Origin: the human T2T-CHM13v2.0 reference genome, Homo sapiens
Direction: 5' to 3' (one strand)
DNA: 64,000 bases
NCBI RefSeq assembly: GCF_009914755.1
Contig: NC_060925.1
Under the pieces are notes generated by a model, which searched no databases, was not told where the DNA came from, and was given only the letters and a program-made list of their open reading frames with translations. Shown here in pieces: positions 6,020 through 51,299 of this stretch (position 1 is the first letter of the stretch; each line of letters starts with the position of its first letter). A program made the position numbers and the translations under genes.

Positions 6020-6542
6020 ATTTCTTTTGAACTACAATTTGCATACAGTAAAAATGCATGGGTTTTAACTATCTCTGAGTGACTTCTATAACCAACTCAT
6101 TCAAAGTACAGAGCGCTTCCATTACTTTAGCAGTTTTCCTTTTGCTTATTTTCAGTCATTCTCCCTGAAAAGTAACCACTGCTGTAATTTCTTTTATCAT
6201 AAATTAGTTCCATTTGTTCTTGAACTTTATTTAAATTAAATCATAGAGTAGTATACTTTTTTATCTGAATTATTTTAATCACATCAATATTTTTTGAGCT
6301 ATATCTATAGTGGGTTATGCTTCTGTCATTTTTCCCTTTTATTGCAATGTAATATATCATTGCGTGCATATACCAAAATTTGTTTATTCACTCTCCTGTT
6401 CATGGACACTTGGGGTCTTTTGAATCTTGTGCTATGCACATTCTAATACAAATCTTTTGTATATATTGTATATGTTTCTATTTGGTGTTGTGGGCAAATG
6501 TATAAACAAAGAGTTGCTGGAGTATAAAGTAGTCTTATATTT
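6020..6542 (-). mobile_element. L1ME-like 3' fragment (left half of host element; resumes at 13900)
   Basis: L1M antisense motifs 'tttgtttattcactctcctgttcatggacacttgggg' and 'gagttgctgg', colinear with 13900-14135. Confidence 0.7.
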
Positions 6543-6567
6543 ATTTATTTGTTTGTTTTTATTTATT

Positions 6568-7255
6568 CTCATATTTGCCTTTCGTTGCTGGAATTCTCAA
6601 CTGATCTTCCTGGGATGCAATGGAGAAAGAAGCATGTTCTAATAACATATCTTCGAGGTTAGTTTACAAGGGTGTTTGCTTGTCAAAATCTTCCATTCAC
6701 TAAAATAAAACAGTTTGTGATGCATCTGAAAAAAGGCATGCCTACATTTTCTCTAATTGCTGGGTATCTTAACTTGTCTTAAAATGGCCTGATAAAGAAT
6801 CATGTTCCTGTAACATATTCTCAAGGTGAGCTTACAACAGTAATTTTTTTCAAACATTTTCATTCATTCAAACACAACAGGTTGTGATGAATCTTTAACA
6901 TGGTATGCTTACATTTGCTTTTTTTTGCTTCATATGTAAATTCATGGCATATGAACCAATATAGAAAGGAACATGTTCTAACGACACATTATCAATGTTT
7001 GCTTACAAAGGTTTTTCTCTGCCAAACACTTCCATTCACTGAAAGATATGAGTTTATGATGCATCCTAAAGAAAGCCTGCTTACATTTGCCTTTTATAGC
7101 TTTAATATATAAACCTGTGTAATATGAACAAATGGAGGAAAAAAACATGTTCTAATAACATATTTATAATGTTTGCTTGCACATTTTTTCTCTGAAAAAG
7201 CTTTCCATTCACTATTAGAAAACAGTTTATTATGCTTTATTATGCACTTCAAAAA
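6568..7255. repeat. Diverged tandem satellite, about four monomers of ~171 bp
   Basis: Anchor CATGTTC at 6633, 6801, 6972 and 7146 (spacing 168/171/174). Shared blocks include taacatat, gcttacaa, ttccattcact, gtttgtgatgcatc and tgcttacatttgc. Confidence 0.9.
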
Positions 7256-7618
7256 TATATTTTATGATGGATTCAAGGGGTACACGTGCAGACTTTGTTA
7301 CATGGATATATTGCTTAATGGTAAGGTTTGAGCTTCTAGTATACCCAACACCCAAAAAGTGAACATTGTACCTAATAGGTAATTTTTCAACCCTCAACCC
7401 CCTCCCAACTTCCCTTCTTTTGGTGTCCCCAGTGTCTGTTATCTCTTTATGTTTATGTGTACCCATTGTTTAGTTCCCACCTATAAGTGAGAACATGTGG
7501 TATGGTATTTGATTTTCTGTTTCTGAGTTATTTCACTTAGGATAATGGCCTTCAGCACCACTCATGTTGCAGCAAAGAACATGATTTCCTTCCTTTAATT
7601 ACTGCATTGTATTCCATG

Positions 7619-8515
7619 AAAAATATATATATTTATACATATATTTATATTTATATAAATATATAAAAATATATATAAATATATAAAAATATATATAAAA
7701 ATATAAAAATATTTATATAAATATATAAAAATATTTAAATATATAAAATATATATAAATATATAAAAATATATAAATATAAATATAAATATATAAAAATA
7801 TATATAAATATATAAATATATATTTATATAATTATATATTTATATAAATATATAAATATATATATAAATATATAAATATATATTTATATAAATATATAAA
7901 TATATAAATATATATTTATATAAATATATAAATATATAAATATATAAATATATATTTATATAAATATATAAATATATATTTATATAAATATATAAATATA
8001 TATAAAATATATAAATATATATTTATATAAATATATAAATATATATAAAATATATAAATATATATATTTTATATAAATATATAAATATATATAAAATATA
8101 TAAATATATATATTTTATATAAATATATAAATATATATAAAATATATAAATATATATATTTTATATATTTATATATATAAATACATATATTTCATATATC
8201 ACATATATGATACATATATGCAATACATCTATACATATAAATAATACATATATTTCATATAATGCATATTAATTATACATAGGTGTTATATATTTTATAA
8301 TATATAATTTGCATTATATATAACACATGTATTATATATGTTTATATATGAAATATATGTATTATATATTTTATATGTATTTCATGGAATACTATAATAC
8401 TATACCATACTATACTATGATACTACGCTATACTAAAATATATGTATAGGATACATATATTTCAAATATGTATTTCATATTTCATACATATATGAAATAT
8501 ATGTATCCTATATAC
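7619..8515. repeat. ~900-bp (TA)-derived AT-rich expansion inside the L1 3' region
   Basis: Near-pure A/T tract of atatataaat/atatattt units, followed by a degenerate TA-rich tract. Confidence 0.97.
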
Positions 8516-9142
8516 CACATTTTAAAAACTCAATATTCTGTTGATGGAAATGTAGGTTGATTTTGTGACTTTGTTGTTAGGAACAGTGTTGCAATAAATA
8601 TACAGGTGTAGATGTCTTTTTTAATGTAAAGATTTCTTTTGCTTTGGGTAGATACCCAGTAGTGGGATTGCTGCATCAAATGACAGTTCTATTTTTAGCT
8701 CTTTGAGGAATCTCCATGTTGGTTTTCGTAGGGATTGTATTGATTCGTATTCCCATCAACAGTGTATAAGGATGTACCTTTTCCTACATCCTCACCAACA
8801 TCTCTCATTTTTTGTCTTTAATAATAGCAATTTGGACTGGTGAGAGATGGTATCTCGTTGTGGTTTTAATTTGCATTTCCCTTATGATTAGTGATGATGA
8901 GCATTTTTTCATATGTTTGTTGGCCACTTGTATGTCTTCTTTTGAGAAATGTCTGTTCATGTCCTTTGCCCACTTTTTAATACAGTTGTTTTTTTCTTGT
9001 TGAGTTGTTTAAGAAACAACTTTTCATTTTGTTGATCCTTTGTACCCTTTTTGTGCTCTCAATCTCATTTAATTCTGCTTTGCTCTAATCTTTGTTAATA
9101 CTTTTTTTTGGGGGTGGGGCTGGTTTTGGGTTTGGTTTATTC

Positions 9143-9441
<299 letters not shown>

Positions 9442-12400
9442 TATTCTTGTTTTTCTAGTTCCTTGATGTGTGACATTAGGTTGTTAATTTGAGATCTTTC
9501 TATCTTGATGTAGGCATTTAACACTAACCATTTTTCTTTTACTACTGCTTTTGCTGTATCCCAGAGAGTTTGGTATGATGTATCTCTATTTTTATTCATT
9601 TGAAACAAATTTTTATTTCTTCCTTAATTTTCTTGTTTACCCAAAAATTATTCAGGAGCAGCTGTTTATTTTCCATGTATTTGTGTAGTTTTCAGATTTC
9701 CTTTTGGCTGTGATTTTTAATTTTATTCCACTGTGGTCTGAAAAGATACTTGATATGATTTTGATTTTTTTGAATTTATTGCTGCTTCCTTTATGGTAAA
9801 GTACATAGTCTCTTTTGGAGAATGGTTTATGTGCAGATTAGAAAAATCTATAATCCATGGTTGTTGGGTGGAATGTTCTGTAAGTGTTTATTCAGTCCAT
9901 TCAGTTCAATCCAGTTTAAGTACAGTGTTTCTTTGTTGATTTTCTGCTTGGATGATCTGTCTAGCACTGTCATTGGGGTACTGAAGTTCGCTACTTCAAT
10001 TATTATATTGCTCTCTATCTCTTCTTAGGTCTAGTAGTATTTGTTTAATGAATCTCAATGCGCTGGTGTTTGGTGCATGTATATTTAGGATAGTTATATC
10101 TTCTTGTTTAATTGAGCCCCTTGTAATTACATGATTTCCTTCTTTGTCTTTTTTTTCACTGTTGTTGATTTCAGGTCTTTTTTATCTGATATATGTATAG
10201 CTACTCATACTCATTTTTGTTTTCTGCTCTCAAGCTATATCTTTTACCACCTCTTTACTCTGAGCCTGGAGACCCATTAGGTATGTTTCTTGAAGACAGC
10301 AGATGACTACATCATGTCTTTTAATGTTGTTTGCCAGTCTATATGTATTAAATTCAACATTTAGGCCATTCACATTCAAGGTTAATATTAATATATGGAC
10401 TGTTGTACCTGTCATAATATTGTTAGTTGAATTCTAGTCTCAACTATGTAATTACTTTGTGGAATTTCTGAGCTTTGTAGTTATGCGTACTTATGTGTGC
10501 TTTTTTAGGATGGTGAGTATTGTGTTTTCCCTTCCATCTTAGGAACTCATTTGAGCATTTCTCGTATAGTTCATTCTAATAGTGACAAATTCTCTTAGCA
10601 TTTTTTTGGGAAATAATTTATTTTGCCTTCATTTATGAAGCTTAGTTTCACTGGATATCAAATTCTTGGCTGGAATTTTGTTTTAAGAAGGCTTTAAATT
10701 GATCCCCAATCTTTTCTAACTTATAAGGTTTCTGCTGATAAGTCCACTGTTTGTTTAATGGGATTTCCTTTATAGATAATTTGATGCTTCTCTCTAGCTG
10801 CTTTTAACATTTTTTTCTTTCACATTGACCTTGGAAAGTCTGATGACTATATGATTTGGTAATATTCTTCTTGTGAAGTATCTTCCAGGTGTTCTCTGAA
10901 CTTTTTGCATCTGCATTTCTACATCTGCAGCAAGATTAGGTAAATTTTTCTGAATTATTCCTTCAAATATATTTCCCAAACTTTTTACTTTCTCTTCTTC
11001 TTACTCAGGAATACCTATAATCTGTAGGTTAAGTCACTTTACATAATTCCATATTTCTCAAAGCCTTTGTTCATTTTTAAATTTCATTTTTTTCTTTATT
11101 TTTGTCTGGGTTAATACCAAACACTGGTCTTCAAGTTCTGTAATTTTTTCTTCCATTTAGTCTGGAGTATTATTAAATCTTTCAGCTGTATTTCAAAAGT
11201 CCCTCAGTGAATTTTATTGTCAGAAGTTCTGTTTGTTATTGTCTTAATAACTATCTATTTTTTAATGTTTCAGGGTTTTTTTCTGATTTGTTTGTATTGG
11301 TTTGCAACCTTATTTCGGATCTCATTGAGCCTTCTTACAGTCTATATTTTGAATTCTTTATCTGTCATTTTAGAATTTTCATTGTGGTTAGAATCCATTG
11401 CCAGAGAGCTAGTCTGATCCTTTGGTGGGTGGTGTAACAAAACACTGTTTCTTCATGGTGCCAGAGTTCTTACACTTGTTCCTTCTCATCTAGAGAAATT
11501 GACACTTCTTATTTTTGAATTTATTTTCATTTCAGTGGTATTTTTTACCCTTTGAGGGTGTGACTGTAGTACATGTTGCTTAGGGTGTTTTGGCTTTGCT
11601 TTTATAGCCCGGTAATCTTCTGACAGCAGGTTTTATATTGGGTTGAGCTCTTCAAGCTCCAGGCCAGTAGGTGGCACTTACTGGTAACAGCTAGCTGTGG
11701 CAAAAGCAGATGAGTATGTACTTGATCCTTTTTTACTGGGATGTGCTCACTGTCATTTTGGGCGACAAACTGGTCTGTGGAATGCCCAGTTCCCTGAGTT
11801 CCCTGTTCAGCTATTTGGTGCAGGCACACAGAGTTGAGCACAGCTGGACAACTAAGCTCTCCCACAACTACCTCAATGACCAGCGCAGGCATCATCCCTA
11901 AGAGGGTGGCTGGGCGAGCGCCTAGTGAAATGCACCAAGCTCTCTACAGATGGGGAGGTGGCTGCACCAACCTATGTCCTAGAGAGGCAGGAATACAATC
12001 TGTTTCCCTATCACACCCTTGACCCAAGGTTCATGACTCCCAGTTCAGACACACACCATCATCCATCTCCAGTGTAGGTGACAGCCACAGAAAACACCTG
12101 CCTTCTGGCTCTCTGTGAGGTGTTTTTGGCATGGAGCCTCTTCACTCAGCCCAGTACAGACATCTTTGTGTCTCGCTTGTTCTCTGATGTGGGATCACTG
12201 CTGCTGCATGTAGAGATGAGGAGGAGCTCCACCTTTCAACACCTGCAGGTGGGTGTCAGCTGTGGTGGTGTTGGCTGGTTGGGTTGGCCTGATGGTGGAC
12301 CCCTGAGAGAGTGCTCAGATGCTAGCAGTAGTGGACTGGGCCAGATAAACCCCCAATCCCCAGGTCCCTATATGGTCCCTTGGACAATGGTGTCCCAGTC

Positions 12401-13367
12401 TAGGAGGGAATGGACCAGTAACAGGCTGGTCCCAACTCCACTGGGAGTTGCCCTCAGGCCCCCAGGGTTCAGGTGCCGGTTGTGGTAGGGAGGGGTGTGC
12501 TGGTCCCAAGGTCACCAACCATGCTTTCAGGTAGGTATAATCAGAATGCTCAGGCAGCAGCAGAATGCTCAGGCAGTGGGGGCCCCAGGGCTGTTCATGG
12601 GCTCATGGGAGCTGGGCTTTCAGAAGGACTCCCAGCCTCAGTTTAAATGATCATGCAGGAGCAGAGCAACTGTACTGTGGGCCTGTCAGTGGGGAAGGCA
12701 GATCCCCTCAGTGGGAGCAGTGGAGACAAGCAGCTGATGGGTGCGTGTCTCACTTGCACCTCCATCCCACAGGAGCAGTGGGGATATCCTTCATGGAGGT
12801 GTGTGAAGGTGTCCTGTCTCCCACTACTCCCCTGGCCCAGCAGCCATAGTGATGGCAGCAGCAATGGCAGAGGTAGCCTCAGGAGAGAATACAGGCCTCT
12901 AGGGCTTGGGTTCTCAGAAGGGCACTGGGCTGTAGCCAAAATCCTCAGGTGTGGGCAAGGTGGCTATGCTCCAGGACTAATTCTGGGGAGGGCAGGCCCC
13001 CTCAGCAGGATCTGTGGAGGCTGGAGCTGTGAGTCCCTTGGCATACTTGTGCTTCCCTCCTGCAGAAGCAGTAGTGTATTCTGCTATTAGAGTACATGAA
13101 GGTGCTCAGTCTTTTTGGTTCCTCTGTGGCCCAGTGGTAGCAATGGCAGCAGGAGCACTGACGGCAGTGGGAGCCCCAGGATAGACTGTAGGCCCCTGGG
13201 GCCTGGACTCTCAGAAGAATGCTGAGCTACAGCCAAATGCTCAGATGGGGGCAGGGTGGGAGCCAGTTGTGCTGTGGACTTGAGGCCAGGGAAGGTGGAC
13301 TCTGTCTAGTGGGAGGAGCAGAGGCAGCAGAACCATGGAAGTGCACTGTCTGCCTACTCCTCTTCTT

Positions 13368-13368
<1 letters not shown>

Positions 13369-13398
<30 letters not shown>
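13369..13398 (+). repeat. (CAG)10 trinucleotide repeat inside the L1 5'UTR
   Basis: Read directly. Confidence 0.98.
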
Positions 13399-13401
<3 letters not shown>

Positions 13402-13899
13402 TATCCATCTTTGGAGTGTGTGAAAGTGCTTCCTCTCCCCATTCCTTCCTTGGCAGTGGCAGTGGTGGTGGCAGCTGGCTCTGGGCTGTAGCTGCTCAGG
13501 GATCAAAATCCTGTGGGAGTCCACATGCACTCAAGCAGTGCCTCTGCACAGTCTCCAGGCAGCTCCCTGTGTTAGCCTAGAGGTCCAGGGGCACTTAGGG
13601 AGGTCTCTCATGACTAGAATTGTAAAGGTCTTTGGCAGAAGTGTGAAACCCCAGGAGTCTCTCACCTACTCATCCCTTCCCCATGTGAGGGAGCATCTCT
13701 TGGATCCTCGCTGCTCCCAGCCCAGCAGGCTGCCCAGCTCTGCTCTCCTCTGCTTTCTGTGATTCCTGTCACTTCTCTGTTGAATTCCAATGTCCTCTCA
13801 GAGATGATCTACCTGAAGTCTTAATATTTACTCACTGTTTGGATTCCTCTCCGTGAGGGCAGTACCCACTAGCTGCTTCTAGTCAACTTGCACCAGAAC

Positions 13900-14135
13900 T
13901 AGTTTTATATTTAAATTGAAAAGATATTACCACCGAGTTTTCCAGAAAGATTGTATCATTTTACTACCATATGAACAACATCATGGGAGTTATTCCATAT
14001 TTTCTCCATTTCCTTTAAAAGCCTTTTCATTTTAGCCATTTGAGTTGGTGTATAGGGGCATCTGGTAGTTGTTTTAATTTGTATTACTTTAATGACAAAT
14101 GCTGGAGAGCAACTTTTCTTTTGCTTATTGTTATT
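13900..14135 (-). mobile_element. L1ME-like fragment (right half of host element)
   Basis: 'gttttccagaaagattgtatcatttta...tttagccatttgagttggtgtataggggcatctggtagttgttttaatttgtatt'. Confidence 0.7.
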
Positions 14136-15570
14136 CCCCGGGCTTCCATATTTGGCCTGTACTCTGCATATTTTCCATGGCTTTAAAAACATCACAGCAT
14201 AAGTATTCATTGCATCCAAATATCCTTCTTTTATCTCACTTCTTAACTTTCTATTAGTTATCACAATCATCTCTTGGATAACCTCTGTTGTATTTATGGT
14301 CCCTCAAATTTCTCGCTCTCTCTGGGACCAAACTCAGTGTCAAATAACCAGAAACTATTCTTGTGATTTCTGTTCTCTGGAACGGAACCTTTGATTATTA
14401 ACCACTGCCAAGACACATTTCAAAATTTCTGTACTTTAAGGAGACAGGTGTGGGTTGGGAGGCATGTGTGGGATTTCTCTTTTGTCACAGAGGTATCTTA
14501 GTCTATGTCTTACTTCCTTGATTCCATTATAATTTTTTTCCAGGAGCATGAAATTCTAGACTCTTGAAGTCACAGAAGATTGCAAATTCTAGGAAAACAA
14601 GCTGTACTCAATTTGTTAACTGTGATTTCAACCAGCAGTGTATAATGACACCTTCTCCATATATTGCGGAATCCTATTTCTGTAATACTCCTAATTAGAT
14701 ACCTGTTGTGTTTCATTCACATCTGTAATCATTTCCTATAGTAGTTACTCAATAGGTATTTCTTAATGTATTAATTTGTTTAATTCATTTACTTCATTAA
14801 TATTAAATATTTATTGAGTATATTGTATATATTGTATAGATACTTGTACTATAACAATGGGAAAAAAGACAAAAATCTCTAATGGAATATACATGATTTT
14901 ATATATACCTGCATATATAACTGAACTTTAGCTTATTGGATTGCTTCTAATTTTTCAGTCATGCTGGCCTGAGTGTTTCTCTCTCTAATCACAACTTCCT
15001 CTGAATCTTGGATTTGTCCAACTGTCATGGCCATTATAAGCACGTTGTGCTTAAACATTTGCCTAAAGAGATACTTTTTACCCCCCCAAAATTCCATAAT
15101 GATAATTTCTACCATATTAAGCCATATGCATGTGATATTGCTAAATCCTAGTGATAGAATAAACAGAAAAGAATTGCTTTTACAATTGGATTTCTCACAA
15201 CTTGCATTTTGAATATTGTTTTCCAATTGTTTTGTGGTCTATACAATAATATTTGAAAAACAAAACAGCATAAAACATTTAGAAATATGTTAGGCCACTT
15301 TGAAAATGCATAATAGCCCTTGAAAATATATGTTTTGATATAGCATAATTTGTATGAGATTATATTTTGTAACAACACAGGTTAAAGAAACTATCTGAGT
15401 TTTTCTAATTTAAAAATAAGTTCTGTAAGGTTGATGACAGAAAATGGTAAGGCTAATTGGAAAGTCATATAATCAATAATCAAACATAGTCACTCCTTTA
15501 GAGTGAGGCAGCTTTAGACCTTTACAAGTTTAGCAGAATCATTCTTTTCCTACCACAAGATCCTTTGCTA

Positions 15571-50045: not shown

Positions 50046-51299
50046 TTCTGTGACAATAATCAAACATTGATCAACATATAGCAAGAAGCAGAATGTGTGG
50101 ATAAACCAATGGTTATAAACAATTCAAATTATATGATAAATATCCCCATATTTGTCCATTGACTCCTAGCAAAGGATTAGTCCAAAACTCTTCACAGGCC
50201 TAGTTAAAATAAAACATAAATTTTAAAACATAGTTTACTTCCAACTGTATTCAAAATGGGAACACTCTAATTTATTTTAAAAGATAAGATAATTTTGTTA
50301 CGCACAAGTCATACTAGAAAAATGAGATAACTATAGGTCAATCTCATCTGTCAACAAACATGCAAAAACCTTAAAGGTATTACAGCAGAATAATAATTAA
50401 AAAAACAGTGTAGGAAAATCTCTTTAGGACTAAATAGATACCAGGATGGAATAAAACATTAGACTATATATGAATCCCCTAAATTAATGGATCAAATTCA
50501 TAGAATTTATGCCACATAGGAAATATATACACATATTAATAGATCTGAAAAATTCATCAGTAAAATTCAACAACATTAATTTAAAATTAAAAAAAAGTCA
50601 TTGAAAGGAATCCCCTAACCCTGAAAAAGTCTAGTATCCACCTCAATCAGGCACCATACTTGCTGGCGAATCTTTAGAATCATTCCCATTATATACTCAC
50701 CATCAGTGAATGAATGTTCCCATTGTTCCAGAAATCGGATAAATATTTTTTAGCAGTAGTAGTGAACTTGCCTTTTTTTTCAATCTGATAAATGTAGAAT
50801 TCTCTCTCTTAGAATTTTATTTTGCATTTTCTGTATGTACATTATATTAGGAATCTTTTCATAAGTTTATTTGCCATTTTGATTTATCTTTTGTGAAATA
50901 CTGGTTCACAATTTTTGTCATTTTTCTGTTTTTTTCTTATGAGTTTATTATATACTTGTATGGTTATACATACATATATGTACATAAATATATTTTTATT
51001 TTCTCCCCACTTTCTCTCTCTCTCTGATCAATCCAATCTCTTTCCAATTTGTTGCAGATGTAATTTCCATATTGTAATTATACTTTTGACACTAATAAGT
51101 GTAATTATACTTTTGATACTAATACATCTTTTGAGAAACAGTCTTATAAAATTTTAAAATAGTGGAATTTATCACTATTTTCCATTTTAGTTTGCATGTT
51201 TTGTGTTTTACATAAATAATAATTCATTATGCACATAATGATGCAGTGACTGGGAATTCTAAGCCAGTCAAATTGGCTTAAGTCCTCACTCATCCTGTT

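What the first reader, a model, noticed from the sequence alone, without database searches (positions are those of the whole stretch)
6568..7255. 171-bp monomer: extinct or pre-alphoid centromeric satellite?
Seen in sequence: period 168/171/174 bp, monomers very roughly 60-70% alike by eye, no intact CENP-B box. Established: primate alpha satellite has a ~171-bp monomer. I do not recognise this sequence as canonical alphoid. Monomer 6633-6800 has only a patchy, gappy resemblance to the reverse strand of monomeric alphoid (atatc-ttcg, tacaa, gtgttt, tatct-aa, ggcct in the same order), which AT-rich DNA can give by chance. Inference: it may sample a dead, very old alphoid layer, or an unrelated nucleosome-length satellite lost elsewhere.
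Basis: partly seen in the sequence, partly recalled or inferred. Interest (0 to 1): 0.75.

Follow-up and report, generated by a model that had tools for sequence, protein, structure and literature searches.

The report
Fossil satellite DNA spread by L1
This four-copy 171-base repeat belongs to a family scattered over most human chromosomes; it was carried here on the tail of an L1 retrotransposon and is likely the remnant of a large satellite of early primates, likely older than alpha satellite, whose main arrays are gone.

Summary
The repeat is real: three whole and two partial ~172-bp monomers, 66-75% alike. It is neither local nor alphoid. CHM13 holds 57 alignment-verified loci on 17 chromosomes, including a 21-23-monomer A/B dimer array at chr19:31.277-31.284 Mb; no large array turned up. 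In the window a 14-bp target-site duplication (13/14) brackets an L1 with both ends, the monomers and a decayed poly(A): an L1 3' transduction. 22 of 51 fetched stretches abut an L1 3' end, from three L1 clades and several junctions, so several source L1s likely sat in arrays now lost. Divergence gives roughly 60-80 Myr, older than the oldest dated alphoid layer (40-58 Myr, PMC2729386). Likeness to alphoid is limited to a weak ~45-bp stretch; the rest is not significant. A centromeric role is inferred only. Untested leads: sifaka Pc170 (171-bp centromeric dimer), MarmoSAT, and a possible Dfam/Repbase entry.

The parts
6530..6543 (.). target-site duplication, copy at the poly(A) end
   Evidence: 13/14 match to 13900-13913; 3 such matches on the + strand of the whole window, these two included
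6544..6567 (-). decayed poly(A) tail (T-rich on +)
   Evidence: sequence; 80% T in the 20 nt before the array
6568..6622 (+). partial monomer, model positions 118-172, type X
   Evidence: nhmmer E 1e-4; typing
6623..6790 (+). monomer 1, type X
6791..6961 (+). monomer 2, type Y
6962..7135 (+). monomer 3, type Y
7136..7255 (+). partial monomer 4 (model 2-102) running into the L1 3' end
7256..13899 (-). L1 with both ends, internally deleted in ORF2; holds an (AT)n expansion (7623-8380) and an Alu (about 9125-9455); L1PB-like (name recalled, not tested)
   Evidence: PF02994 ORF1 piece E 9e-18, PF03372 endonuclease piece E 9e-4, 2 of 6 pieces matched; genome matches to its 5' end mostly begin at 13880-13900
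13900..13913 (.). target-site duplication, copy at the L1 5' end
6250..6529 (-). older host L1, left half
   Evidence: aligns to L1 3' regions, collinear with the right half
13914..14150 (-). older host L1, right half, resuming where the left half stops
   Evidence: left flank extrapolates to L018 position ~876, right flank starts at 878

Best explanation
The array is a 688-bp piece of a dispersed 172-bp satellite family, carried here by L1 3' transduction, likely from large homogenised arrays of an early primate ancestor that have since been lost. Shown: family, dimer structure, the TSD-L1-satellite-poly(A) anatomy in the window. Inferred: L1s inserted into the arrays at T-run/A endonuclease sites of the monomer (model ~135 and ~105), transcription ran past the weak L1 end into the satellite's minus strand and was polyadenylated about 25 nt after the AATAAA that types X and A carry there; type Y has TATAAA and was read through. 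This gives tails of 32 bp up to four monomers. The copy is likely an inert fossil today. Whether the source arrays were centromeric is not shown (about 40%).
For: TSD 13/14, poly(A), host element resumes, no monomer beyond the L1. 57 alignment-verified loci on 17 chromosomes; 106 on 20 with two pattern scans (controls 0 and 2 hits); 15 of 16 fetched pattern-only loci look real, many a 32-bp piece (model 104-135) between a T tract and an antisense L1 end. 22 of 51 stretches abut an L1 3' end (16 antisense, 9 sense, 3 both) against 2 such ends in the 64-kb window. Junction L1 ends fall in three groups (supports 0.965, 0.990) and meet the monomer at ~30, ~105, ~135. TSD-like pairs by eye at L016 9/9, L004 13/17, L017 11/12, L009 13/14. 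chr19 array alternates A/B (tree supports 0.955, 0.978); no antisense L1 end was found in it, and its types are 75-87% alike to X/Y, so it is not the source of most copies. Polyadenylation signals by type.
Against: 29 of 51 stretches show no L1 end at the array edge, among them long ones (L002, L003, L005, L006, L009, L012). Sense-side L1s may be later insertions at the tail junction, not sources. The L1-end model was built from 17 junction ends, the 16 pattern-only loci (of 49) were picked by me, mostly at low mismatch, and some stretches are not independent (three from one chr7 cluster; L019/L022 share a flank). Full TSD tests were possible only where the L1 5' end was in hand. The lost large arrays are inferred, not seen; genome searches score only 40 candidates each. 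Ages rest on one borrowed rate and are upper bounds.
Confidence: 0.75

Rival explanations
1. A very old layer, ancestor or sister of alpha satellite.
For: Same 172-bp length as ancient alphoid and a dimer (PMC2729386 passages). Profile-profile scores 12.4-19.1 in one orientation, same register in 8 of 9 tests, 0-10 of 100 shuffles reaching them; reversed and complemented controls 7.9-13.0. The anchor stretch scores higher with old than young alphoid. The rest of the monomer lay above the shuffle mean in 8 of 8 tests.
Against: That rest is not significant (16-78 of 300 shuffles); about 50% identity with many gaps; consensus tests gave z up to 3 in both orientations; a reversed control reached 15.8; nhmmer best E 0.05 in 110 kb of panel. 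The alphoid arrays tested are not independent, and the oldest families SF13-18 were not knowingly in my panel.
Confidence: 0.2
2. Never abundant: a few small local arrays (such as chr19 and chr7) that happened to catch some very active L1s.
For: Only about 100-190 loci (capture-recapture ~190); the chr19 array is under 7 kb and its left flank looks like ordinary old euchromatin (element names recalled).
Against: At least seven combinations of L1 group and junction; two distinct dimer systems; dispersed L021 is closer to the A consensus (16%) than the chr19 monomers are (20-26%, leave-one-out), which points to a homogenised source elsewhere.
Confidence: 0.2
3. Human remnants of an already catalogued satellite (Repbase/Dfam Sat-1_TSy, recalled; MarmoSAT/CgoA; sifaka Pc170). 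Compatible with the best explanation; it lowers novelty only.
For: Pc170: 171 bp, dimer, FISH with CENP-C, no homology to alphoid (PMC13228423). MarmoSAT 171 bp, 338-bp dimer in Callimico, L1 dispersal proposed (PMC5737874).
Against: None of these sequences could be read. MarmoSAT primers did not match above shuffles, but the positive control failed too. MarmoSAT is reported absent from Aotus and Saimiri. Top repeats of tarsier, galago and mouse lemur in PMC4053949's file differ by eye, and 4 family motifs had 0 hits there.
Confidence: 0.4
4. A tandem repeat inside a transposon or retrovirus-like element.
For: Dispersed copies of like age.
Against: Flanks of 51 stretches cluster only as L1 ends or Alu, plus one duplicated pair; ends and copy numbers vary; a 21-23-mer dimer array exists.
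Confidence: 0.04
5. A purely local duplication.
For: None.
Against: Other loci match window monomers at 68-85%, as well as or better than the monomers match each other.
Confidence: 0.01

Closest known systems
Ancient alpha satellite layers H1-H4, SF13-18 (PMC2729386; preprint 10.1101/2021.07.12.452052)
   Same: 172-bp AT-rich monomer, dimer, no CENP-B box, small divergent relic arrays broken by transposons, some far from centromeres
   Different: no significant sequence match over the monomer; within-type identity at chr19 66-68% against 71% for H4; associated L1s look older than L1PA7
Sifaka centromeric satellite Pc170 (PMC13228423)
   Same: 171 bp, dimer arrays, not alphoid
   Different: GC 39% against 30-35% here; live and centromeric; sequence not compared
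MarmoSAT/CgoA (PMC5737874)
   Same: 171 bp, non-alphoid, dimer in Callimico, L1 transduction suggested
   Different: subtelomeric, reported only in callitrichines; sequence not compared beyond primers
L1 3' transduction; Alu-transduced WaluSat (preprint 10.1101/2021.07.12.451456)
   Same: retroelement plus flanking DNA plus poly(A) within a TSD
   Different: here many L1 sources sample one satellite whose arrays are gone
Dispersed euchromatic alphoid pieces (PMC7719264)
   Same: short satellite pieces in chromosome arms
   Different: attributed there to circular DNA with no role for retroelements; here L1 carriage is shown for the window copy

Membership tests
alpha satellite | ~171-172-bp head-to-tail monomer | tested here: met
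alpha satellite | significant sequence similarity to alphoid over the monomer | tested here: not met
   best 12.4 bits by nhmmer; remainder of monomer not significant; SF13-18 not knowingly tested
alpha satellite | remote common origin (shared ~45-bp stretch) | tested here: inconclusive
alpha satellite | CENP-B box (only in younger families, so not decisive) | tested here: not met
   0 matches in the window
L1 3' transduction | non-L1 DNA directly 3' of an L1 | tested here: met
L1 3' transduction | poly(A) after the extra DNA and a TSD around the whole | tested here: met
L1 3' transduction | source locus identified | tested here: not met
   no antisense L1 end found in the chr19 array; source presumed lost
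satellite DNA | homogenised tandem arrays with monomer types or dimers | tested here: met
   A/B alternation at chr19
centromeric satellite | megabase arrays bound by CENP-A or CENP-C | not testable with these tools
   no large array found in CHM13; no other primate genomes held
Pc170, MarmoSAT, Sat-1_TSy | monomer sequence identity | not testable with these tools
   sequences not readable; primer test uninformative; no Dfam

The most novel reading that the evidence does not exclude
This is the centromeric satellite of our lineage before alpha satellite: a 172-bp dimer of the early primate ancestor, possibly still live as sifaka Pc170 or in tarsier and possibly the root of alphoid, whose sequence survives in humans as L1-transduced fossils and a relic array on 19q12.
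Probability: 0.3. Interest if true: 0.85.

Novelty: new variant of a known kind. Interest (0 to 1): 0.65.

Why it matters
What served as centromeric DNA between the primate radiation and the first alpha satellite is open: none is found in tarsiers or lemurs (PMC2729386, PMC9549924 passages). This family has the right size, dimer structure and rough age, and its consensus can be tested at once against the new lemur, tarsier and marmoset assemblies. It also shows a general method: L1 3' transductions keep dated samples of satellites whose arrays have vanished.

Tried and rejected
Local duplication and transposon-internal tandem rejected. Rfam: 0 matches at E<=1. Single-strand folding of a dimer not unusual (z -0.9). 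Alphoid tested by nhmmer, consensus and profile alignments: borderline; the anchor-segment score is post hoc and not counted. Of 20 stretches fetched as alphoid, 9 held alphoid. MarmoSAT primer test uninformative. No monomers in the 10 kb on either side of the chr19 fetch. Nine literature searches showed no paper describing this family; 'TSy' had no satellite hit in main texts or in the supplements searched. Two papers were not held; supplements of PMC13228423, PMC11312596 and of the bioRxiv preprints could not be read and may name this repeat. Earlier findings were not open. NCBI's masking is uninformative: most of the L1 is not among the listed stretches either.

Full report
Observation. The repeat is at the stated place. 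Copies start at 6623, 6791, 6962 and 7136, are 66-75% identical and score far above 200 dinucleotide shuffles each. A fifth partial copy lies at 6568-6623. Neighbouring stretches on both sides score at shuffle level. No CENP-B box pattern (recalled motif) occurs in the window.

It is a dispersed family. Searching CHM13 with the array gave 45 matches, self included, at 68-85% identity. Four alignment searches (40 candidates scored in each) merge to 57 loci on 17 chromosomes; two 26-nt pattern scans (70 and 58 hits, reversed controls 0 and 2) raise the union to 106 loci on 20 chromosomes, with a capture-recapture guess near 190. I fetched 16 of the 49 pattern-only loci, mostly low-mismatch ones: 15 look real by extension or context, one (L063) is doubtful. 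Three more patterns gave 54, 7 and 1 hits. No scan showed a large array.

It behaves like satellite DNA. chr19:31,277,124-31,283,911 holds 21 monomer hits head to tail (23 or so counting pieces cut by insertions), period 171, broken by a DNA transposon, an LTR element, an L1 end and an Alu (element names recalled). Its 12 whole monomers alternate between two clades, A and B (supports 0.978 and 0.955). Dispersed copies mostly belong to two other types, X and Y; consensus lengths are 172-173 bp, types 75-88% alike. A and B also occur outside that array (L021, L023, L046). chr7:88.527-88.551 Mb looks like a second broken array. Flanks of 51 stretches share only L1 ends or Alu, apart from one duplicated pair, so this is not a tandem inside a transposon.

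How the window copy arrived. An L1 lies on the minus strand from 13899 to 7256: ORF1 and endonuclease pieces match Pfam (2 of 6 pieces), and genome matches to its 5' end mostly begin at 13880-13900. 6530-6543 and 13900-13913 match at 13 of 14, with three such matches in the window in all. Between the left copy and the array is a T-rich tract, a decayed poly(A) on the L1 strand. The older L1 that was interrupted continues in register on the far side, and no monomer lies beyond the L1. L1, satellite and poly(A) therefore came as one insertion: a 3' transduction as defined in preprint 10.1101/2021.07.12.451456 (passages).

The same process elsewhere. 22 of 51 stretches have an L1 3' end within 130 bp of an array edge, 16 antisense and 9 sense; 29 have none. 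The window has 2 such ends in 64 kb, one being this junction. Many short copies are a 32-bp piece, model 104-135, between a T tract and an antisense L1 end; on the L1 strand this is AATAAA followed by about 25 nt, a canonical polyadenylation site. Types X and A carry AATAAA there, Y carries TATAAA, B AGTAAA; the window's tail runs through two Y monomers and one X with an altered signal and ends in an X. The 17 junction L1 ends fall in three groups and join at about 30, 105 and 135, at least seven combinations. If junctions reflect sources, several L1s sat in arrays; I found no antisense L1 end in the chr19 array, and L021 is closer to the A consensus than chr19's own monomers. Inference: the sources were larger, homogenised arrays that are gone. 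Caveats: sense-side L1s and some antisense ones may be later insertions at the same endonuclease sites; the detection model came from these ends; TSDs at L004, L009, L016 and L017 are by eye and AT-rich.

Age. At 0.216% per Myr (rate quoted in PMC2729386, passages), X and Y copies give 73-76 Myr, junction L1 ends 78-82 Myr, chr19 monomers 87-111 Myr. These are upper bounds, as source diversity, CpG decay and the fast decay of dead arrays inflate them; I read them as about 60-80 Myr. That paper dates the oldest alphoid layer it studied to 40-58 Myr with L1PA7 as its oldest L1, finds no alphoid in tarsiers or lemurs, and names L1PB3 as shared with lemurs. By eye the junction L1s are L1PB- and L1MA-like (recalled, untested).

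Alphoid. Against real CHM13 alphoid (9 of 20 fetched stretches held it) the family model scores at most 12.4 bits, members 100-155. Consensus alignments gave z up to 3-4 in either orientation. Profile comparisons with 172-bp alphoid show a weak ~45-bp stretch in a shared register, but the remaining ~120 columns are not significant (16-78 of 300 shuffles). It is not a member; a remote common origin is not excluded, and the oldest families SF13-18 (preprint 10.1101/2021.07.12.452052, passages) were not knowingly tested.

Known relatives. Sifaka Pc170 is a 171-bp centromeric dimer without homology to alphoid (PMC13228423, passages and tables; preprint passages; sequence in an unreadable supplement). 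MarmoSAT is a 171-bp subtelomeric satellite (PMC5737874, parts 1-4 of 5; PMC13041921 passages); the primer test had no power. Tarsier, galago and mouse lemur top repeats in PMC4053949's supplement differ. A Repbase/Dfam entry Sat-1_TSy is recalled only; searches found no mention. PMC7719264 (passages and section 12) ascribes dispersed alphoid to circular DNA. Also seen as passages: PMC9549924 (supplement search), PMC7767330, PMC13103737, PMC5059674. The 13 new interstitial arrays of the T2T repeat preprint are in tables I could not see. I put the chance that the family already has a library name at about 40%.

Verdict. The centromeric role is a hypothesis that one alignment against lemur and tarsier assemblies would test. 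Interest 0.65.

Noticed in passing
window 8977-9010: The L1's ORF2 jumps from just after the endonuclease region to the C-terminal end, so most of ORF2 is deleted.
   Followed up: partly
window 7623-8380: About 760 bp of almost pure A/T repeat inside the L1 3' region, with many long inverted pairs.
   Followed up: no
window 12857-13237 and 13368-13400: The L1 5' UTR has an 84-bp duplication 297 bp apart and a (GCA)11 run.
   Followed up: no
L043 1124-7911 (chr19:31.277-31.284 Mb): Longest relic array of the family, A/B dimer, on proximal 19q.
   Followed up: yes
L002, L044, L045 (chr7:88.527-88.551 Mb): About eight monomer pieces on one strand over 24 kb, split by L1 and LTR elements; the gaps between the three fetched pieces were not read.
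   Followed up: partly
L019 and L022; pattern hits on chr9 (4), chr5 (2), chr7 (2): Shared flank or identical motif copies, probably segmental duplications.
   Followed up: no
L047 1015-1491: Monomers in opposite orientations on the two sides of an Alu.
   Followed up: no
L003, L005, L015, L046: Later insertions cut monomers at model ~105 and resume at ~92-93, a 13-bp duplication at one recurrent site.
   Followed up: partly
window 51073-51124: 27-bp unit in two copies, 96% alike.
   Followed up: no
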